DNA of 11,573 bases from a virus: the UHGV virus genome UHGV-1580203. One strand, given 5' to 3'. Of this stretch, positions 1-8,336 are shown piece after piece. Under the pieces are notes generated by a model that had not been told where the DNA came from, made no database searches, and saw only the letters and a program-made list of their open reading frames with translations. How positions within the stretch are numbered: the first letter of the stretch is position 1; the number at the start of each line of letters is the position of its first letter. A program made the translations under genes and the position numbers.

Positions 1-52
1 CAACGACCTTCTAAGTCGTGGGCCGCAGGTTCGAATCCTGCAGGGCGCGCCA
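1..52 (+). tRNA. argU: tRNA-Arg(UCU), 3' portion only (5' part lies upstream of window)
   Basis: Seen: anticodon stem-loop ACGAC/CTTCTAA/GTCGT with TCT anticodon at 10-12, T-arm GGTTCGAATCC at 29-39, acceptor 3' strand GCGCGCCA ending CCA at 50-52. Matches my recollection of E. coli argU; only the 3' 52 nt are visible. Confidence 0.85.
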
Positions 53-67
53 TTACAATTCAATCAG

Positions 68-1231
68 TTACGCCTTCTTTATATCCTCCATAATTCCACA
101 GTGGGACATATTTGGGACATTATCACCAAAAATGTCGTCTATTTTCCTTGCATGCTCTGTCAAATGATTAGGCGCAAGGTGAGCATACCTACGAACCATT
201 TCTATGGACTCCCATCCGCCCATTTCCTGAAGCACAGATAATGGGACGCCTGACTGGATCAGCCAGCTTGCCCAGGTGTGTCTGAGGTCATGGAAACGGA
301 AATCTTCAATTCCTGCACGACGACAAGCTGATAGCCATGATGTCTTGCTGTCGATGCGCATCTTCCTGACCGCAGGCGTTGATGTTCCATCTGCTCGCTT
401 AGCCGCCTTGGTATGTACAAACACCCATTTGTGATGCTTGCCTATTTGATCACGCAACACTTTACAGGCGGTATCGTTCAGCGCCACACCAATGGCGCGG
501 TTTGATTTGCTCTCTTCTGGATTCACCCAGGCAACTCGTCGCTGCATGTCGATTTGTTGCCATTCCAGATTTATGATGTTCGACTTTCTCAGACCAGTTG
601 CCAGCGCAAACTTGACGACAGATTTCAGTGGTTCGGAGCACTCATCAATAAGGCGTTTTGCTTCCTCCTTTTCCAGCCATCTGACTCGCTTGTTTCTGAC
701 CGCTGGTATCTTGATGACAGGCGCTTTTTCCAGCCACTTCCAGTCGCGTTCTGCAGCACGGAGAATGGCCTTTATCATGGCAAGATGCTTTGCCTTTGTC
801 TGAGTTGATACTGGCTTTGGTTCATAAACAGGCGGTTCTTTACCTTTCCTGATGGCGGCCTGAACTTTCTGTTTCCATATTTCTTTCGTCTTTCTGTTAT
901 GCATTCTGCTTACAGCAGAGTAAATCTTTGCCTCCGAGATATCTTTAAGCCTTATACCCTCAAAATGTTCAAGCCAGAACTCAATCCGGCTTTTATCTGA
1001 ATCGAGAGATTTTTTATCAGCTTTTTCCTCAAGCCATCTTAGGCAGGCCTCTTCAAAAGTGACATCAGGTAAATCCCCTAGCTTTTCTACTCGCCAGAGT
1101 TCTGCTTTTCGCTTGTCGTGCAACTCCTGAGCTTGCCGCTTGTCCTTTGTGCCAAGAGATTCCTTAATTCGTTTCCCGCCCGGGAGCGAATACGAGGCAT
1201 ACCATATTTCATTTCTGCGGAAGAGTGACAT
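68..1231 (-). CDS. int: Tyrosine-type phage integrase (P22/DLP12 IntD-like)
   Basis: 387-aa ORF ending 15 bp from the tRNA 3' end; C-terminal [15 protein letters not shown] and RRYAHL motifs typical of tyrosine recombinase R-H-R-Y catalytic core; RBS GAGGAAA upstream of ATG at 1231; N-terminus MSLFRR...WYASY resembles P22-family Int by recollection. Confidence 0.95.
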
Positions 1232-2767: not shown

Positions 2768-2779
2768 GCAGTAATGAAA

Positions 2780-3604
2780 TCAGGCGGTGAAAGTACCAAT
2801 AAAGGTTTCTACTTTGCTGTCTTTGAATTTCTCAACAAGCAGATCACGAAATTCGTTAGCCATTTCTTCCTGCACCGCTTCCAGCTGAATAATGCGCAGA
2901 ACCAGTACAGGACGATCGCCAGTGATAATGCTGAGGCGTAATTTAAACGGACGTTCTTTCAGACCTTCAAACGGAACGCATTTAAATTCAAATGCCACTG
3001 GCATAATGTCTTTGGTCTTCGCTTCGACAGACTCCATCAGGGAGCGTTTGCCGCTGAAGTCATTATCTTCAAAATCAGCGGTCTGGTTTGCTTCAATCGT
3101 GATTTTACGGACTGCCGCAGCCGCTTTTGTTGCTTGAATGGCGTCACCATTAGCATCAAAGCCCACAAGGTAGTCGGCCCAGTCTTCGATCCATTCTGCC
3201 AGTGACCTCTGGGAGTTACGCTCGCCGTTAACAGACAACAGAGCAGAGAACGGTGCTGTCTTTTTCAGTTTGAGAGTGGCAGTGTTATCTGCGTGACCTG
3301 GCTCATCAATAGTACCCAGGTTAAGCACACTGACGGCACGCATATTATCGGCATCGATAAAGCAGCGGGTGCCTTCATCTGCAAGATCTTTAGAATAACG
3401 GGTAAAATCATCGATGCTGGCAGTGGAAAGTGCACCACGGAAACGGAAGCGATTTAAATTAAATTTTTCCAGATCATGAATGCGGAAATTCTCAGGCAAT
3501 GCCACAGCATCGGCACCAATCTTACTGATAATTTCATTAACACCCTGAGCAGAAATAAGGGCATGGATTTGATTAATTGCGGTTGCGTCTAAGTTCTGAG
3601 ACAT
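2780..3604 (-). CDS. yfdQ: Hypothetical phage protein, YfdQ-like (DUF2303-type by recollection), 274 aa
   Basis: 274-aa ORF with RBS GAGGA about 9 nt upstream of the ATG at 3604; N-terminus [21 protein letters not shown] matches what I recall for E. coli YfdQ; function unknown. Confidence 0.8.
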
Positions 3605-3669
3605 AATAAGTCCTCACTATATAAAGATATTCAGTGATGAGATAAATAATCAGTTTATTACGAACGATA

Positions 3670-4032
3670 TTAACGACCTGCTGCGCGGAGTTTTCCGTCA
3701 GGTTCACCGGCAAGAGTCAGTAATTGTCCCTGGTCTTCCTGCAGAATAGTCAGGCGACCACCGCGATTGACATACATCGGCGTTTCGGTGGTGTCTTCTT
3801 CGGAAATTTTCCCGCGGTTAGTTGGGCGAACATATGAGAGTTTGTGTTTGATTTTCACACGGTTCTCATCAAACGGTTCGATTTCCAGATTGAGTGAGAC
3901 CTTCCCTTTGGTTTTCGTGTTCATCACACCGGAAGCGACCTCACTGAGAACTGCGCCGATTTTGGTTTCAAATACGCCGCCGTCCAGCTCCCCGATAAAT
4001 GCCTGCACATCAGTACTGCGTTCGCTAGCCAT
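3670..4032 (-). CDS. yfdP: Hypothetical phage protein, YfdP-like (120 aa), start at internal Met of the 182-aa ORF
   Basis: Internal start MASERSTDVQ preceded by RBS AGGAG with 7-nt spacing; the upstream 62 codons of the listed ORF are GC-rich and not protein-like; 120-aa length matches recollection of yfdP. Confidence 0.65.
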   Translation of the reverse strand: MASERSTDVQAFIGELDGGVFETKIGAVLSEVASGVMNTKTKGKVSLNLEIEPFDENRVKIKHKLSYVRPTNRGKISEEDTTETPMYVNRGGRLTILQEDQGQLLTLAGEPDGKLRAAGR

Positions 4033-4080
4033 TTTGCTGCTCCTCATCATATCGACCCTGCAAGGTCGGTTGGTTTCTCC

Positions 4081-4169
4081 ACAAAACAGAGAAGAACACC
4101 TGCGGTGGCAGCCGCCCGGATGGATTGGGTTATGAGCCCGTCGTCCGGTGATGCTCTTCTCTGTTTTGT
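4081..4169. repeat. Long imperfect inverted repeat (18-bp arms, one mismatch) flanking a 53-bp GC-rich core
   Basis: Seen: 4081-4098 ACAAAACAGAGAAGAACA versus reverse complement of 4152-4169 (ACAAAACAGAGAAGAGCA); on the minus-strand RNA the mismatch becomes a G-U wobble, giving an 18-bp stem; inner segment has CCGGA/TCCGG pairing. Confidence 0.6.
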
Positions 4170-4460
4170 AAAAAGAGCGGTGCCAGCCGGAAGCAAGTGT
4201 ACAAACTGGTACCGCCAAAGCAGTGGCTGTTGTGGTGCCGGGTGCCTCCCGGTGCCTGGCGAAGGTTGCACACCAGGCGGGTGGGTATCCACAGAAGGTC
4301 GACTGTCAGCCTCAACCTTAACCCGCGTGCGCTGAGCCGCATTCACCACAACGCTAAGGATTCTCTCTGGTTGAAAATACTTAGCTGTTATGTGCCTGCT
4401 TTTAGCCACATCAGGCGAGGTGGACCTGGTTATTCCCCAACAACAAGGATTCGGTTAATC

Positions 4461-4489
4461 TTGATACCCCCAATAACATGGTGATTATT
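4461..4489 (+). promoter_or_regulatory. Candidate promoter for the 167-aa plus-strand gene (-35-like TTGATA, A/T-rich -10-like GATTAT/TTATTT)
   Basis: TTGATA at 4461-4466 and a -10-like hexamer 16-18 bp downstream, ending a few bp before the ATG at 4494 (transcript would be near-leaderless); by eye only. Confidence 0.3.
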
Positions 4490-4493
4490 TAAG

Positions 4494-4997
4494 ATGGACA
4501 AATTTGATAGAAGTGCACAAAGGCAGTTGTTACAAATACTGTATGATGCTCATCCTTATGAAATTTCTGATGATGCGTTGCAGTCTGTTCGTGACGCATT
4601 TGGAGATGATAATGTCCTAATTTCGAACTTAATTTATCTCGAAGAACATGGCTTGATTAAGAATGCTCTTGATTATTACTTGGATGGCATAAATATAAAT
4701 ATTCCTGAATTAAGAATTACTAAAGATGGAATTGATTTCATTCGTGATGATGGAGGTCTTAAAGCTATTCTTGGGATTATGACAATAAGATTGCATGATG
4801 AGACTCTCTGTGAACTTGAACGTATCATCAATAGTTCTACTTCTGCCACGACTGAAGATAAGAAGAAATTACTCTCTCAGCTTCGAACGCTTCCTGCCGA
4901 CGCCATAAAACAGCTGACGATTCGATTACTTGGTCAGGGGCTTGACCATCTGCCGGACGTATTTCACGTAATTCAAAAAGCCCTCCATTCTCTGTAA
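4494..4997 (+). CDS. Orphan 167-aa protein, unknown function (AT-rich moron in the immunity-adjacent slot)
   Basis: Uninterrupted 167-codon frame through visibly A/T-rich DNA with A/T-ending codons, opposite in orientation to the flanking early-left operon; followed by a plus-strand intrinsic terminator at 5175-5198; no family recognised. Confidence 0.6.
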   Translation: MDKFDRSAQRQLLQILYDAHPYEISDDALQSVRDAFGDDNVLISNLIYLEEHGLIKNALDYYLDGININIPELRITKDGIDFIRDDGGLKAILGIMTIRLHDETLCELERIINSSTSATTEDKKKLLSQLRTLPADAIKQLTIRLLGQGLDHLPDVFHVIQKALHSL

Positions 4998-5130
4998 ATT
5001 CTGATTCTGGTCGGATTAGACAGAATCGTCCCCATCCGACCTGCTTACTAAGTAGAATCCAGAATTCGTCTTGTTGGTTGGTGCTGATAAAAAATCCATT
5101 AGGATGAACGTAAGCACAGAATATGACCAT
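4837..5130 (-). CDS. Possible small protein (97 aa) antisense-overlapping the 3' end of the 167-aa gene; uncertain
   Basis: ATG at 5130 preceded by AAAGAGGGTTCT (GAGGG RBS, about 5-nt spacing); first ORF downstream of the putative pL; overlaps the convergent gene by about 160 nt, so it may be a shadow ORF. Confidence 0.25.
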   Translation of the reverse strand: MVIFCAYVHPNGFFISTNQQDEFWILLSKQVGWGRFCLIRPESEFTENGGLFELREIRPADGQAPDQVIESSAVLWRRQEAFEAERVISSYLQSWQK

Positions 5131-5159
5131 AGAACCCTCTTTTGTTACGGGGATACTAA

Positions 5160-5174
5160 GATTGTTAAAGAGCT
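5160..5174 (-). promoter_or_regulatory. boxA-like element (AGCTCTTTAACAATC on minus strand) immediately 3' of the antisense hairpin
   Basis: Minus-strand sequence GCTCTTTAACAAT is a 13-nt contiguous match to the rrn-type boxA consensus as I recall it (TGCTCTTTAACAATTTATCA); lies on the pL-transcribed strand directly after the 5198-5175 hairpin. Confidence 0.45.
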
Positions 5175-5198
5175 AAGCGTCCTGTAGGGCGCTTTTTT
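5175..5198 (+). terminator. Rho-independent terminator for the 167-aa gene transcript
   Basis: Stem AAGCGTCC (5175-5182) / GGGCGCTT (5187-5194) with one G-U pair, loop TGTA, then run of six T (5193-5198). Confidence 0.6.
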
Positions 5199-5364
5199 GT
5201 TGCTAACGAATCATCCTGGACTTCATATGCCCCAGGCGGCTACTTCGTGGGCGTCCTGCCTGTTCGTTTTTGACATTTACTGACTGCTTACGACACATGC
5301 ACCGTGTTGCAACCAGATTTTGTTGTAATCCTGTAGTTGGTCTGGAACAAAAGATAAAATTAAA

Positions 5365-5401
5365 TTGCGAGATATGCAAGTGATATTTGCGAGATATGCA
5401 A
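5365..5401. promoter_or_regulatory. OL-like operator pair: two identical 15-bp sites TTGCGAGATATGCAA separated by 7 bp, with overlapping leftward promoter (pL-like)
   Basis: Seen: exact direct repeat at 5365-5379 and 5387-5401; same TTGCGNGATANGCAA pattern as the site at 6169-6183 in the cI-cro intergenic region; minus-strand TTGCAT -35-like hexamers lie within the sites. Confidence 0.6.
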
Positions 5402-5410
5402 ATTTATAGG

Positions 5411-5435
5411 TAATAAAAAGCCACCTTTCGGTGGC
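5411..5435 (-). terminator. Rho-independent terminator downstream of cI
   Basis: On minus-strand RNA: GCCACC-GAAA-GGUGGC (6-bp stem, GNRA-type tetraloop) followed by UUUUUAUUA; 20 nt downstream of the cI stop. Confidence 0.65.
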
Positions 5436-5455
5436 CGATGGATGGGATATTGAGG

Positions 5456-6148
5456 TTAATTATGTCTCTTAAGGGTTTGCGACTGACTGATTAAGACCTT
5501 TCCAAAGACCATGAATCGGTGTTCGTTTTCGCTAGTAATTCCCCATTCACGGTAAATCTGGTTATCAGAAATCACCAGCAGTTTGTCAGGAATCATTTGA
5601 AGTCTTTTAACGTATATTTTGTCATCAAAACCAAAGACATATATACCATCACCATCAAACTGATTGATGCTGACATCAACGAAGATGAGATCTCCTGGCT
5701 CAATGGTTGGACACATACTGTCCCCACGAACGTTGATAACTTTGATGTGATTGGCTGGTCGTCCGCCGAACATTGATACAGCATTATCAGTTCTGTATTC
5801 GATGGCATGAATCACATCAATGACATCACCGCCCTGGATAAGGCCATTTCCCGCACTGGCACTGATATCCAGCATTTCAATACGGAACACATCCTTCACC
5901 TGCGCAACATCCTCATTATTACTGTTTTTATATACAGTATTACTTTTGTGGGCAGAGGTAAAGAGATCAGCAATATCAACACCTAAGCTCTTGGCAATAT
6001 TACTCAGTGTTTGTTCGGTAAATTGTTTTTGCTTACCCGTTTCTAAGCGCGAGATGTTCGCCGCATCTACTCCTATCGCTTCAGCGAGATCGGCGATTTT
6101 CATGTTCTTCGCTTGGCGAAGTTGTCTGACTCGGTTTCCTATGTTCAT
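5456..6148 (-). CDS. cI: CI-type prophage repressor (N-terminal HTH, C-terminal LexA-like S24 autopeptidase domain)
   Basis: 230 aa; N-terminal HTH (VRQLRQAKNMKIADLAEAIGVDAANISRLETGK); C-terminal GDSM (catalytic Ser) and VKRL (catalytic Lys) motifs of the S24 family; divergent from a cro-like gene. Confidence 0.93.
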   Translation of the reverse strand: MNIGNRVRQLRQAKNMKIADLAEAIGVDAANISRLETGKQKQFTEQTLSNIAKSLGVDIADLFTSAHKSNTVYKNSNNEDVAQVKDVFRIEMLDISASAGNGLIQGGDVIDVIHAIEYRTDNAVSMFGGRPANHIKVINVRGDSMCPTIEPGDLIFVDVSINQFDGDGIYVFGFDDKIYVKRLQMIPDKLLVISDNQIYREWGITSENEHRFMVFGKVLISQSQTLKRHN

Positions 6149-6245: not shown

Positions 6246-6506
6246 ATGCAATCACCATTACGAAATGTGCGTAAGGCGCATGGTTTCACTTTGCAGCATG
6301 TTGCTGCGGGTGTTCAAGTCAATCCAGCGACGTTGAGTCGTATTGAGAGGCTGGAGCAGATTCCATCTATCGAGCTTGCAGAACGTTTAGCCAATTTTTT
6401 TAAGGGTGAAGTCAGCGAAATGCAGATTCTTTATCCGGCACGTTTTCAATCTAGCCAAAACCAGAATGGGTTTAAACCACAGGAACAGGAGGTGAACCGT
6501 GGGTAA
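6246..6506 (+). CDS. cro: Cro-like HTH transcriptional regulator (XRE family)
   Basis: 86 aa; HTH segment GFTLQHVAAGVQVNPATLSRIERLEQ; first gene rightward of the operator region, divergent from cI; GGAGG RBS. Confidence 0.88.
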   Translation: MQSPLRNVRKAHGFTLQHVAAGVQVNPATLSRIERLEQIPSIELAERLANFFKGEVSEMQILYPARFQSSQNQNGFKPQEQEVNRG

Positions 6507-7385: not shown

Positions 7386-7405
7386 AGGTCGGTCATGAGC
7401 ACTAA
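7226..7405 (+). CDS. Candidate small protein (about 59 aa, TTG start) in an alternative frame, not in the supplied ORF track
   Basis: RBS GAAGGAGA at 7211-7218 then TTG at 7226; frame reads [59 protein letters not shown] to stop at 7403-7405; protein-like composition; overlaps the O-like start by 11 nt. Confidence 0.35.
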
Positions 7406-8336
7406 ATTAACCGGCTATGTATGGGATGGTTGCGCTGCATCAGGCATGAAATTATCCAGCGTGGCAATTATGGCCCGCCTGGCTGATTTCAGTAATGACG
7501 AAGGTGTGTGTTGGCCATCAATTGAAACCATTGCCCGTCAGATTGGCGCGGGGATGAGTACCGTCAGGACGGCTATCGCACGGCTGGAAGCAGAAGGCTG
7601 GTTAACGCGTAAGGCGCGTCGCCAGGGTAACCGCAATGCGTCGAATGTTTATCAGCTTAACGTTGCGAAGCTTCAGGCAGCGGCATTTTCTCAACTGTCA
7701 GATTCTGACCCGTCAAAATCTGACGCATCAAAATCTGACCCGTCAAAATTTGATGCGTCGAAATCTGGCAAAAAAGCGGGTTTTCACCCGTCAGAATCTG
7801 GCGGGGATCCGTCAGTAAAATCAAAACATGATCCGTCAGATAAAAAACCTTCTCGTCCGGACGCTTCGCAACCGGACACGCAGACGGATGAACAGGATTT
7901 TTTAACTCGCCATCCTGATGCGGTTGTATTCAGCCCTAAAAAGCGCCATTGGGGAACGCAGGATGATTTGACCTGCGCACAGTGGCTCTGGAAAAAAATC
8001 ATCGCCCTGTACGAGCAAGCCGCCGAATGTGACGGCGAGGTGGTTCGTCCCAAAGAACCGAACTGGACAGCCTGGGCAAACGAAATTCGCCTGATGTGTG
8101 TGCAGGATGGTCGTACTCACAAACAAATCTGCGAGATGTACAGCCGCGTCAGCCGCGATCCGTTCTGGTGCCGTAACGTGCTCAGCCCGTCGAAGTTGCG
8201 GGAAAAATGGGATGAGCTTTCCCTGCGCTTATCACCGTCCGTCAGCACGTACACCGAAAAACGCGAAGACCCGTACTTCAAATCCAGTTACGACAACGTG
8301 GACTACAGCCAGATCCCGGCAGGATTCAGGGGGTGA
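7395..8336 (+). CDS. Replication initiator protein (lambda O-like architecture: N-terminal HTH domain, iteron-encoded linker, C-terminal domain)
   Basis: 313 aa; N-terminal HTH-like segment (WPSIETIARQIGAGMSTVRTAIARLEAEGWL); central low-complexity linker encoded by tandem DNA repeats (see ori feature); RBS GAGG upstream of ATG 7395. Confidence 0.85.
   Translation: MSTKLTGYVWDGCAASGMKLSSVAIMARLADFSNDEGVCWPSIETIARQIGAGMSTVRTAIARLEAEGWLTRKARRQGNRNASNVYQLNVAKLQAAAFSQLSDSDPSKSDASKSDPSKFDASKSGKKAGFHPSESGGDPSVKSKHDPSDKKPSRPDASQPDTQTDEQDFLTRHPDAVVFSPKKRHWGTQDDLTCAQWLWKKIIALYEQAAECDGEVVRPKEPNWTAWANEIRLMCVQDGRTHKQICEMYSRVSRDPFWCRNVLSPSKLREKWDELSLRLSPSVSTYTEKREDPYFKSSYDNVDYSQIPAGFRG
7690..7850. repeat. 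Origin-like iteron array inside the initiator gene: four to five 15-bp tandem repeats (TCTGACSSRTCAAAA) followed by spaced GATCCGTCAG repeats and an A-rich tract
   Basis: Seen: units at 7705-7719, 7720-7734, 7735-7749, 7750-7764 and degenerate 7765-7779; CCGTCAG at 7789-7795, 7810-7816, 7834-7840; ATAAAAAA at 7841-7848. Lambda ori likewise lies within O as iterons plus an A/T-rich region. Confidence 0.7.

What the first reader, a model, noticed from the sequence alone, without database searches (positions are those of the whole stretch)
4837..5130. Possible antisense-overlapping small gene forming a convergent pair with the orphan gene
Seen: a 97-aa minus-strand ORF starts at 5130 with a reasonable RBS (AAAGAGGGTTCT-ATG), is the first ORF downstream of the putative pL, and overlaps the 3' end of the plus-strand 167-aa gene by about 160 nt exactly where that gene becomes GC-richer. 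Inference: either a shadow ORF, or a genuine overlapping partner (toxin/antitoxin-like or regulator/effector pair using sense-antisense overlap). Its N-terminus is not arginine-rich, so it is not an obvious N-type antiterminator.
Basis: partly seen in the sequence, partly recalled or inferred. Interest (0 to 1): 0.5.

Follow-up and report, generated by a model that had tools for sequence, protein, structure and literature searches.

The report
Hidden antisense-overlapping gene in prophage cassette
The small minus-strand reading frame is a real, conserved but almost never annotated gene that shares about 160 bases of DNA, on the opposite strand, with a winged-helix gene; the two travel together as a mobile cassette in many prophages, which makes this a rare, well-supported case of two proteins encoded on opposite strands of the same DNA.

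Summary
A 97-aa ORF (5130→4837, minus strand; ATG, AGAGGG Shine-Dalgarno) overlaps the last 161 nt of the 167-aa plus-strand gene (4494-4997).

Comparative evidence shows it is a gene, not a shadow ORF.
- Among 135 distinct homologues of the 167-aa gene, the same antisense frame is open in 95-100. The other two antisense frames are open in 8 and 12.
- A profile of only the non-overlapping N-terminus finds homologues downstream of 66-79 loci, all but one in that frame.
- That part shows coding periodicity, with an aligned ATG and Shine-Dalgarno site.
- Synonymous variation of the 167-aa gene collapses in the overlap (0.83→0.45) only where the partner exists. Partner-less loci show 0.80 and 0.78.

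The pair is a ~680-bp mobile cassette of temperate phages. It usually sits antisense inside a lytic operon, so the small gene reads with that operon. Here it lies behind pL; elsewhere it often lies behind Q and a terminator.

The 167-aa protein has an acidic YjcQ/MarR-like winged-helix domain plus helices. The partner is a small β-sheet-plus-helix protein with no known relative.

Most likely the two are expressed in mutually exclusive phases (lysogen versus lytic growth). A functional antagonism between them is inferred, not shown.

The parts
4837..5130 (-). Partner gene: 97-aa small protein. Residues 1-44 are encoded outside the overlap and 45-97 inside it. Predicted as four β-strands plus a C-terminal helix.
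   Evidence: ORF. Homologous ORFs in the same relative frame in other phages. N-terminus-only profile hits only in this frame. Alignment A3 has invariant F23, G32 and F36. Structure model has pLDDT 69.5.
4494..4997 (+). Sense gene: 167-aa protein (phrog_3983) with an acidic N-terminal winged helix-turn-helix domain and four C-terminal helices.
4837..4997 (.). Dual-coding overlap of 161 nt (about 53 codons of each gene, tail to tail). Partner codon positions 1, 2 and 3 lie opposite sense positions 1, 3 and 2, so no site is synonymous in both frames.
   Evidence: Frame arithmetic from the coordinates. Pairwise differences at the three positions are 0.35, 0.27-0.28 and 0.38, against 0.45, 0.35 and 0.63-0.67 outside the overlap. 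Sense pS is 0.448 in the overlap against 0.825 outside it.
5135..5140 (-). Shine-Dalgarno sequence AGAGGG of the partner gene, five bases upstream of the ATG.
   Evidence: Sequence. The aligned start is ATG in 58 of 64 homologues, and 54 of 66 have an SD-like motif.
4478..5160 (.). Mobile two-gene cassette, bounded by phage-backbone sequence that is shared with phages carrying other cargo in the same slot.
   Evidence: Backbone identity with SfIV ends at about 4477 and resumes at about 5160. Mosaic matches. 76 E. coli genomes carry the cassette next to a different immunity region.
4461..4488 (+). Promoter-like site for the sense gene (TTGATA-16-GATTAT). The -35 hexamer lies in the backbone and the -10 in the cassette.
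   Evidence: Consensus scan (a pattern match only). Junction position.
5175..5204 (+). Intrinsic terminator for plus-strand (sense-gene) transcription, lying beyond the partner's start codon. The sense mRNA would therefore be antisense to the whole partner ORF and its ribosome-binding site.
   Evidence: 8-pair stem, 5 GC pairs, T-run. It is part of the conserved backbone.
5340..5401 (-). pL region with two identical operator-like sites (5365-5379 and 5387-5401). This is the leftward promoter that would transcribe the partner gene.
   Evidence: 4 sites against 0.44 expected; the other two lie between cI and cro. Sequence.
5205..5268 (-). Conserved structured leader RNA of the pL transcript, upstream of the partner gene. 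It belongs to the backbone, not the cassette.
   Evidence: Present in 51 phage records. Five pairs show compensatory changes. No Rfam match.

Best explanation
Shown:
- The minus-strand ORF is a genuine protein-coding gene of about 100 aa.
- It forms an ancient, obligatorily overlapping, tail-to-tail pair with a 165-173-aa winged-helix protein gene.
- The pair moves between temperate phages of Gamma-, Beta- and Alphaproteobacteria as one cassette of about 0.7 kb.

Inferred from anatomy and context:
- The cassette is typically inserted so that the small gene reads with the surrounding phage lytic operon. It often sits directly behind a point where transcription needs antitermination. In this window that point is pL plus its leader; elsewhere it is often Q plus a terminator that ends 7-14 nt before the ATG.
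- The winged-helix gene reads against the operon from its own promoter. In some phages it reads from the cI or mnt-like maintenance operon.
- The winged-helix protein would therefore be made in the lysogen. Its mRNA runs on to a terminator beyond the partner's start codon, so it is antisense to the whole partner message.
- On induction or infection, lytic transcription would express the partner and, by polymerase collision and antisense pairing, shut down the winged-helix gene. The two proteins would be expressed in mutually exclusive phases.

Speculative:
- The small acidic β-protein binds and neutralises the winged-helix protein when the phage itself goes lytic. This would be a lysogen-phase exclusion or regulatory factor with cognate self-immunity.
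- The coding overlap would keep the two inseparable.
For: Evidence that it is a gene:
- Among 135 distinct homologous loci, the partner frame is open from stop-120 to stop+60 in 95. The other two antisense frames are open in 12 and 8.
- A profile of the non-overlapping 44 residues finds 66 hits (79 after iteration) in the 300 nt downstream of the sense stop. All are in that frame except one frameshifted copy. The other four frames give none.
- Pairwise differences by codon position in the non-overlapping part are 0.447, 0.351 and 0.627. The sense gene shows 0.451, 0.345 and 0.665.
- pN/pS in the non-overlapping part is 0.51, with pS saturated.
- The aligned start codon is ATG in 58 of 64 homologues, and an SD-like motif is present in 54 of 66.
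- Sense-frame synonymous differences fall from 0.825 to 0.448 in the overlap, in 2,122 of 2,145 pairs. Twenty-five partner-less loci show 0.795 and 0.781, lower in 150 of 300 pairs.
- F23, G32 and F36 are invariant across Escherichia, Pseudomonas and Acinetobacter versions.

Evidence that the pair is ancient: partner-bearing loci span the whole tree, and partner-less ones form nested sub-clades.

Evidence for a mobile cassette:
- The pair occurs in different genomic contexts.
- The junctions are exact.

Evidence on orientation and context:
- The neighbour upstream of the partner is co-directional with it in 49 of 77 loci. The neighbour beyond the sense gene is co-directional with it in 50 of 79.
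- Q antiterminators lie upstream in 11 loci.
- L127 reads NinG-Q-terminator-partner><sense-holin-lysozyme-Rz.
- A terminator on the partner strand ends 7-14 nt before the ATG in most of the 26 (of 64) loci that have one within 110 nt upstream of the start.
- The sense gene follows a cI-like gene in AbIPP1 and an Arc/Mnt-like gene in GF-2.
- In the window, pL, its leader and the plus-strand terminator are placed as described.
Against: - There is no translation or transcription evidence of any kind.
- Promoter and terminator calls are consensus matches only.
- About a third of partner-bearing loci do not have the partner co-directional with its neighbours. In AbIPP1 the partner points away from the early operon.
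- 35 of 135 sense genes lack the partner yet keep the conserved C-terminal motif, so the sense protein can work alone.
- Neither protein matches a family of known function.
- The winged-helix domain is strongly acidic (charge -9). This argues against simple DNA binding and leaves its role open.
- Physical interaction between the two proteins was not tested.
- The partner model is only of moderate confidence (pLDDT 69.5).
Confidence: 0.55

Rival explanations
1. Shadow ORF. The frame is open by chance or as a by-product of the codon usage and amino-acid conservation of the 167-aa gene, and no protein is made.
For: The window contains several antisense ORFs of 100-122 aa that are plainly shadows. 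PGAP and most gene callers do not call it: only 31 clusters against more than 2,080 for the sense gene. Large surveys conclude that most long antiparallel ORFs are not under selection (bioRxiv 10.1101/724807). There is no expression evidence.
Against: Nearly half of the ORF (44 of 97 codons) lies outside the sense gene. That half is conserved as protein in one frame only, with third-position periodicity and a conserved ATG and SD. Frame openness is 95 of 135, against 8-12 for the other frames. Synonymous sites of the sense gene are constrained only in loci with the ORF.
Confidence: 0.04
2. Toxin-antitoxin-like module. The small protein is a toxin or effector. It is held in check in the lysogen by the winged-helix protein (a type II-like antitoxin/autoregulator), by the sense mRNA acting as a full-length antisense RNA (type I-like), or by both.
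For: It is a two-gene mobile cassette in prophage cargo hot spots. Neighbouring cargo in some relatives is TA-like: a DUF4065 gene in L019, and in L018 an ORF with an RNEADYH motif that I read as HEPN-like but did not scan. The larger partner has a winged-helix domain, as many antitoxins do. The sense transcript would cover the partner's ribosome-binding site. The overlap enforces co-inheritance.
Against: The genes are convergent, not a co-directional bicistronic operon. The partner is acidic and soluble-looking rather than a small hydrophobic type I toxin. It has no similarity to any toxin family or fold. The winged helix is acidic. Partner loss with retention of the supposed antitoxin occurred repeatedly. 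That pattern is possible for TA decay but gives no support.
Confidence: 0.15
3. Two functionally independent genes. The small protein is an early or late lytic accessory factor, such as an inhibitor of a host protein or defence system. The winged-helix gene is an unrelated moron. They are linked only because one arose by overprinting the other's 3' end.
For: The partner sits where first-expressed lytic genes sit. Small acidic phage proteins are often host-protein inhibitors (general knowledge). The sense gene functions without the partner in 26% of loci.
Against: The partner was never found apart from the sense gene. All detected homologues overlap it by 110-218 nt. The 168 called representatives were not checked for context. 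The pair moves as a unit among unrelated positions. This would be unexpected if the partner served the host phage's own lytic programme.
Confidence: 0.2
4. The conserved downstream region is a regulatory RNA or DNA element of the sense gene (3' UTR, terminator or antisense promoter), not a protein.
For: It lies in the 3' UTR of the sense transcript. Terminators abut it in many loci.
Against: The DNA is too diverged for blastn while the protein aligns. Variation peaks at every third base in the ORF's frame. Conserved residues are aromatic or glycine in a β-strand pattern. The start codon and SD are conserved.
Confidence: 0.03

Closest known systems
Experimentally supported antisense overlapping genes in E. 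coli (nog1, asa, ano, pop and others) and surveys of long antiparallel ORFs
   Same: A protein-coding ORF lies on the strand opposite an annotated gene and is missed by annotation pipelines (PMC9927249, PMC6294744, PMC5960689, PMC7457138, listed).
   Different: Those ORFs are mostly embedded, young and taxonomically restricted. They are supported by expression data but by weak conservation. This case is the reverse. It has deep conservation across three proteobacterial classes, a tail-to-tail partial overlap, a clear dual-coding constraint, and no expression data. Surveys found that such selection is exceptional (10.1101/724807).
Phage morons (for example lambda bor, or cargo at the Q-S locus such as stx): autonomous cargo genes with their own promoter and terminator inside phage operons
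   Same: It is a variable-cargo slot between conserved backbone flanks. The sense gene has its own promoter-like site and terminator and reads against the operon. One recurrent site is between Q and the lysis genes.
   Different: Classical morons are single, non-overlapping genes. Here the cargo is a convergent pair, and one member is wired into the host operon's lytic transcription.
Convergent-transcription switches (coliphage 186/P2 pR-pL; Enterococcus pCF10 prgQ/prgX)
   Same: Face-to-face transcription units whose overlap can give mutual exclusion through transcriptional interference and antisense RNA (established knowledge, cited from memory).
   Different: In those systems the overlap is at the 5' ends or is non-coding. 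Here about 50 codons of both proteins are encoded by the same DNA at the 3' ends. Interference has not been measured.
Prophage defence with cognate self-immunity (BstA with its aba element; cited from memory)
   Same: A lysogen-expressed prophage gene is paired with an element that spares the prophage's own lytic cycle and is physically embedded in the same locus.
   Different: aba is a DNA element, not a protein. No defence phenotype is known for this cassette, and there is no PADLOC match.
YjcQ (PF09639) / DUF2513 winged-helix proteins of prophages
   Different: All hits are below Pfam's curated cut-offs. This family has an extra, conserved, four-helix C-terminal half and the invariant G-x-D-F-x3-D-G-G-L motif. 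The function of YjcQ/DUF2513 is itself unknown.

Membership tests
Protein-coding gene (as opposed to shadow ORF) | The reading frame is retained in diverged homologues more often than the alternative frames. | tested here: met
   Open in 95 of 135 loci, against 12 and 8. 100 of 135 are open when the more diverged types are counted.
Protein-coding gene (as opposed to shadow ORF) | Amino-acid conservation and third-position periodicity in a part not shared with another gene. | tested here: met
   The N-terminus-only profile gives 66-79 hits in one frame, one frameshifted copy in a second frame and none in the other four. Positional differences are 0.447, 0.351 and 0.627. pN/pS is 0.51.
Protein-coding gene (as opposed to shadow ORF) | It constrains synonymous sites of the overlapped gene. 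| tested here: met
   pS is 0.448 against 0.825 with the partner, and 0.781 against 0.795 without it.
Protein-coding gene (as opposed to shadow ORF) | Conserved translation-initiation signals. | tested here: met
   Aligned ATG in 58 of 64 homologues. SD-like motif in 54 of 66.
Protein-coding gene (as opposed to shadow ORF) | Direct evidence of translation (Ribo-seq, peptides). | not testable with these tools
   No expression data are available here.
Type II toxin-antitoxin system | Co-directional, usually overlapping or adjacent, bicistronic operon. | tested here: not met
   The genes are convergent in every locus examined.
Type II toxin-antitoxin system | The toxin belongs to a known toxin fold or family. 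| tested here: not met
Type II toxin-antitoxin system | Toxicity of one component, neutralised by the other. | not testable with these tools
   Requires experiment.
Type I toxin-antitoxin system | Small hydrophobic membrane toxin repressed by an antisense RNA. | tested here: not met
   The partner is acidic (family median pI 5.3) and is predicted as β-sheet plus helix with no membrane segment. Antisense coverage by the sense mRNA is plausible from anatomy only.
Lambda N-type antiterminator | Arginine-rich N-terminal RNA-binding motif. | tested here: not met
   The N-terminus is MVIFCAYVHPNGFF. The family is acidic.
Lambda N-type antiterminator | Fixed position as the first gene of the pL operon in related phages. 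| tested here: not met
   Related backbones (SfIV, Kati and others) carry other cargo there. The gene occurs with its partner at Q-S, terminase-lysis and immI-like sites.
Phage moron / cargo cassette | Variable cargo between conserved backbone flanks. | tested here: met
   Junctions at about 4477 and about 5160 against SfIV. 76 E. coli genomes carry the cassette, and many more carry only the flanks.
Phage moron / cargo cassette | Own promoter and terminator. | tested here: inconclusive
   Promoter-like site at 4461-4488 and terminator at 5175-5194 for the sense gene. These are consensus matches only. The partner has no room for its own promoter, with only 29 nt between the junction and its ATG.
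YjcQ/DUF2513 winged-helix family (167-aa protein) | Score above Pfam's gathering threshold. | tested here: not met
   The window protein has no hit. 12 and 4 of 62 relatives hit at E values of 1e-4 to 0.1.
YjcQ/DUF2513 winged-helix family (167-aa protein) | Winged helix-turn-helix fold. | tested here: met

The most novel reading that the evidence does not exclude
The cassette is a previously unrecognised lysogeny/lysis-coupled two-protein switch. A lysogen-phase winged-helix exclusion or regulatory protein and its lytic-phase protein antagonist are encoded on opposite strands of the same 160 bases. The coding overlap would itself be the device that enforces mutually exclusive expression and inseparable inheritance. 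It would be a widespread, unannotated class of prophage module across Proteobacteria.
Probability: 0.25. Interest if true: 0.85.

Novelty: new variant of a known kind. Interest (0 to 1): 0.68.

Why it matters
Long antisense coding overlaps in bacteria and phages are contested. Most candidates rest on expression data and have little or no conservation, and genome-wide surveys conclude that most are not under selection.

This pair supplies the missing kind of evidence.
- The overlap of about 50 codons has been maintained across Gamma-, Beta- and Alphaproteobacterial prophages.
- There is an internal control: partner-less relatives show no such constraint.

It also exposes a protein family that annotation pipelines miss in roughly 98% of cases. 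This is a rough estimate from 31 called clusters, against about 1,500 expected if about 74% of the more than 2,080 sense clusters carry it.

The small gene recurs just behind pL or Q-controlled terminators, opposite a lysogen-oriented gene. That suggests a testable way for prophage cargo to be switched between lysogenic and lytic states.

The cassette is present, 100% identical, in culturable strains such as E. coli NCTC86, so the experiments are straightforward.

Tried and rejected
- Family searches for the partner (Pfam, PHROGs, NCBIfam, PADLOC) found nothing, either singly or across 36 members.
- For the sense protein, the profile matches to staphylococcal protein A B-domains (best E 4e-6, no individual stretch passing the threshold) and to DUF1542 were judged to be helical low-complexity resemblance. 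The weak PADLOC CARF hit (E 0.013) was ignored.
The BFVD search gave only weak YjcQ-like hits.
- Literature searches for phrog_3983, DUF2513/YjcQ and overlapping prophage genes found no description of the pair.
- The N-antiterminator reading was rejected (see the membership test).
- I tested whether the conserved pL leader RNA is an HK022-type put element. A covariance model found no copy in HK022 (24-31 kb) and no second, putR-like copy in the window. The identification was therefore dropped. The nhmmer run printed nothing and is uninformative.
- JC-corrected dN/dS was set aside because synonymous sites are saturated. Raw proportions were used instead.
- One search was an empty script.

Full report
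**Setting**

The window is the left half of a lambdoid prophage of the SfV/SfII/SfIV type, integrated next to a tRNA-Arg(UCU) gene.
- Integrase lies at 68-1231 (-).
- YfdT/R/Q/P-like early-left genes follow.
- The cI-like repressor is at 5456-6148 (-), and cro and a cII-like gene start at 6246 (+).
- Sources.

Two identical operator-like sites (TTGCGAGATATGCAA) lie at 5365-5401, just left of the cI terminator (5419-5436). Two related sites lie between cI and cro. That is 4 matches against 0.44 expected. pL therefore fires leftward from about 5340.

**Observation**

The ORF is exactly as described: 5130→4837, 97 aa, ATG, with AGAGGG five bases upstream.
- It overlaps the 3' end of the 167-aa plus-strand gene (4494-4997) by 161 nt.
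- GC rises from 33.8% to 46.6% at the overlap.
- An ORF of this length on the antisense strand is not unusual in this window, so the sequence alone decides nothing.

**The ORF is a gene**

A blastn search with the cassette hit only the overlap region (72-73% identity) in two unrelated phages, PhiR49_2 and Edwardsiella GF-2. In both, that DNA is the 3' end of a 171-aa homologue of the plus-strand gene, in quite different genomic contexts. Both carry an antisense ORF whose non-overlapping N-terminus aligns with the window ORF: MIVYTADFHPNGFFI...DFWV.LS..VGWGKF. The same holds in Pseudomonas and Acinetobacter phages.

I then collected 182 loci from species-representative genomes, IMG/VR contigs and GenBank phages. 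They hold 135 distinct versions of the plus-strand protein. The results were as follows.

1. Frame retention. The antisense frame used in the window is open from 120 nt inside to 60 nt beyond the sense stop in 95 of 135 loci. The other two antisense frames are open in 12 and 8.
2. Frame-specific protein conservation. A profile was built only from the 44 residues encoded outside the overlap and searched against six-frame translations of the 300 nt downstream of each sense stop. It gave 66 significant hits, and 79 after iteration. All were in that frame except one frameshifted copy, and four frames gave none.
3. Coding periodicity. In that non-overlapping part, pairwise differences at codon positions 1, 2 and 3 are 0.447, 0.351 and 0.627. 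This is virtually the pattern of the sense gene's own non-overlapping part (0.451, 0.345, 0.665). pN/pS is about 0.5 even with saturated pS.
4. Initiation signals. The start codon aligns in one column and is ATG in 58 of 64. An SD-like motif precedes it in 54 of 66.
5. Dual-coding constraint. Partner positions 1, 2 and 3 lie opposite sense positions 1, 3 and 2, so no site is silent in both frames. All three positions are accordingly constrained in the overlap (0.35, 0.27-0.28, 0.38).
6. Synonymous-site control. Sense-frame synonymous differences fall from 0.825 outside the overlap to 0.448 inside it, and are lower in 2,122 of 2,145 pairs. In 25 relatives that lack the partner ORF, the same C-terminal codons show no drop: 0.795 against 0.781, lower in 150 of 300 pairs.

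**Age and annotation status**

A neighbour-joining tree shows partner-bearing loci throughout the family. Partner-less ones form nested sub-clades: a Klebsiella type with a replaced C-terminus, Paraburkholderia, Stenotrophomonas, Psychrobacter and some Alphaproteobacteria. This points to an ancestral pair with repeated loss.

Overlap length is 152-218 nt in the main type and 110-125 nt in a diverged type. No unpacked, non-overlapping arrangement was seen.

Gene callers almost always miss the partner.
- It has 31 clusters among 5.8 billion proteins, against more than 2,080 for the sense gene.
- It has 168 representatives at 50% identity among 1.84 billion.
- It has no Pfam, PHROG or NCBIfam family.

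**What the proteins look like**

The 167-aa protein:
- It is phrog_3983, of unknown function.
- The model has pLDDT 83. It shows an N-terminal winged helix-turn-helix followed by four helices.
- Sub-threshold YjcQ/DUF2513 hits recur in relatives.
- The family is acidic (median pI 5.3). The window's winged-helix domain carries a net charge of about -9, which is unusual for a DNA binder.
- A G-x-D-F-x3-D-G-G-L motif is invariant.

The partner protein:
- The model has pLDDT 69.5. It shows four β-strands and a C-terminal helix.
- It is also acidic.

**The cassette and its wiring**

Comparison with SfIV puts the cassette at about 4478-5160. The flanks are shared by many phages that carry other cargo there.

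In the window:
- The sense gene has a promoter-like site at 4461-4488.
- The only plus-strand terminator is at 5175-5194, beyond the partner's start codon. The sense mRNA would therefore be antisense to the entire partner message.
- Only 29 nt separate the junction from the partner's ATG, so the partner must be transcribed from pL through the leader.

Across 77-79 partner-bearing loci, the flanking genes are co-directional with the partner in about 63% on each side. The sense gene is typically a lone antisense gene inside a phage operon.

Q antiterminators are the commonest upstream neighbour, in 11 loci. L127 reads NinG-Q-terminator-partner><sense-holin-lysozyme-Rz. In 26 of 64 loci a terminator-like hairpin lies on the partner's strand within 110 nt of the start, and in most of these its T-run ends 7-14 nt before the partner's ATG.

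Conversely, the sense gene follows a cI-like repressor in Acinetobacter phage AbIPP1. It follows an Arc/Mnt-like gene, beside arc-ant, in GF-2.

**Interpretation**

Shown: the gene is real, the overlap is ancient and selected, and the pair is a mobile cassette.

Inferred from anatomy: expression is phase-specific and mutually exclusive. The sense protein would be made in the lysogen and the partner under antiterminated lytic transcription. Exclusion would be reinforced by convergent transcription and full antisense complementarity.

Speculative: the partner neutralises the winged-helix protein during the phage's own lytic growth.

Against generality:
- About a third of loci have other orientations.
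- The sense gene survives without the partner in 26% of loci.
- There are no expression or interaction data.

A type II TA reading fails on operon architecture and toxin similarity. A type I reading fails on the nature of the small protein. An N-like role fails on sequence and on the gene's mobility.

**Novelty**

I found no description of the pair. Antisense overlapping genes are a known but disputed category (bioRxiv 10.1101/724807). This is an unusually well-conserved, tail-to-tail example with a suggestive regulatory context. I rate it a new variant of a known kind.

Noticed in passing
window 5205-5268 (-): A 64-nt, highly conserved structured RNA lies at the very start of the pL transcript. 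It is present at the same place, just beyond the cI-like gene, in 51 phage records, including SfII, SfV, SfIV, ST64B, mEp460, mEp237, phiNP, and Yersinia, Pantoea, Klebsiella and Pectobacterium phages. It is unannotated in nearly all of these records. Its 5' half is invariant. It has an outer stem and an inner hairpin with five compensatory pairs. Rfam has no match. A covariance model finds no copy in HK022 and no second copy in the window, so a put-type identity is not shown. It is a candidate cis-acting leader or antitermination RNA.
   Followed up: partly
window 5162-5194: The hairpin that terminates plus-strand transcription (5175-5194) is followed on the minus strand by GCTCTTTAACAA (5162-5173). 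This matches the rrn-type boxA consensus as I recall it, in the rrn-like order of hairpin then boxA. It is a single copy, and a match of this length is expected by chance about once per window.
   Followed up: partly
L002 (SfIV) 3094-3721: The same backbone slot in SfIV carries a different, unrelated convergent pair: SfIV_36 (144 aa, +) and an unannotated 73-aa minus-strand ORF at 3500-3721 that overlaps it by 29 nt. The slot may favour convergent two-gene cargo.
   Followed up: partly
window 4231-4350 (-): A partial match to the Rfam sRNA family STnc100 (35.6 bits, gathering score 47, E 8e-5) lies between the cassette and the YfdP-like gene, inside overlapping ORFs.
   Followed up: no
window 3670-4409 (-): The YfdP-like region is split into two overlapping ORFs here (3670-4218 and 4047-4409). 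In an otherwise near-identical E. coli prophage the corresponding genes are annotated as frameshifted pseudogenes (L001), whereas SfIV has one intact 226-aa gene. This is probably a decayed early-left gene.
   Followed up: no
window 7696-7770 (+): Iteron-like direct repeats lie inside the replication-protein gene (7395-8336) and encode a DPSKSDASKS-type repeat. They produced a spurious mir-5880 Rfam hit. This is probably the replication origin within the O-like gene, as in lambda.
   Followed up: no
window 1-49 (+): The 3' part of a tRNA gene with anticodon loop CUUCUAA (Arg-UCU) lies next to the integrase gene. It is the prophage attachment junction.
   Followed up: no
L022 (Halomonas phage vB_HboP_4908) 1763-2311 (-): The GenBank record annotates a full-length antisense shadow ORF in place of the phrog_3983 homologue on the other strand, which looks like a mis-annotation. 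In PhiR49_2 (L003), an unannotated 116-aa minus-strand ORF at 2779-3129 whose translation looks HNH-endonuclease-like to me (not scanned) lies opposite an annotated 61-aa plus-strand CDS.
   Followed up: no
L122, L025, L096/L097, L081: These loci show decaying partner genes. L122 has a frameshifted copy. The others have N-terminally truncated copies with the overlap frame still open. They show the route by which partner-less lineages arise.
   Followed up: partly
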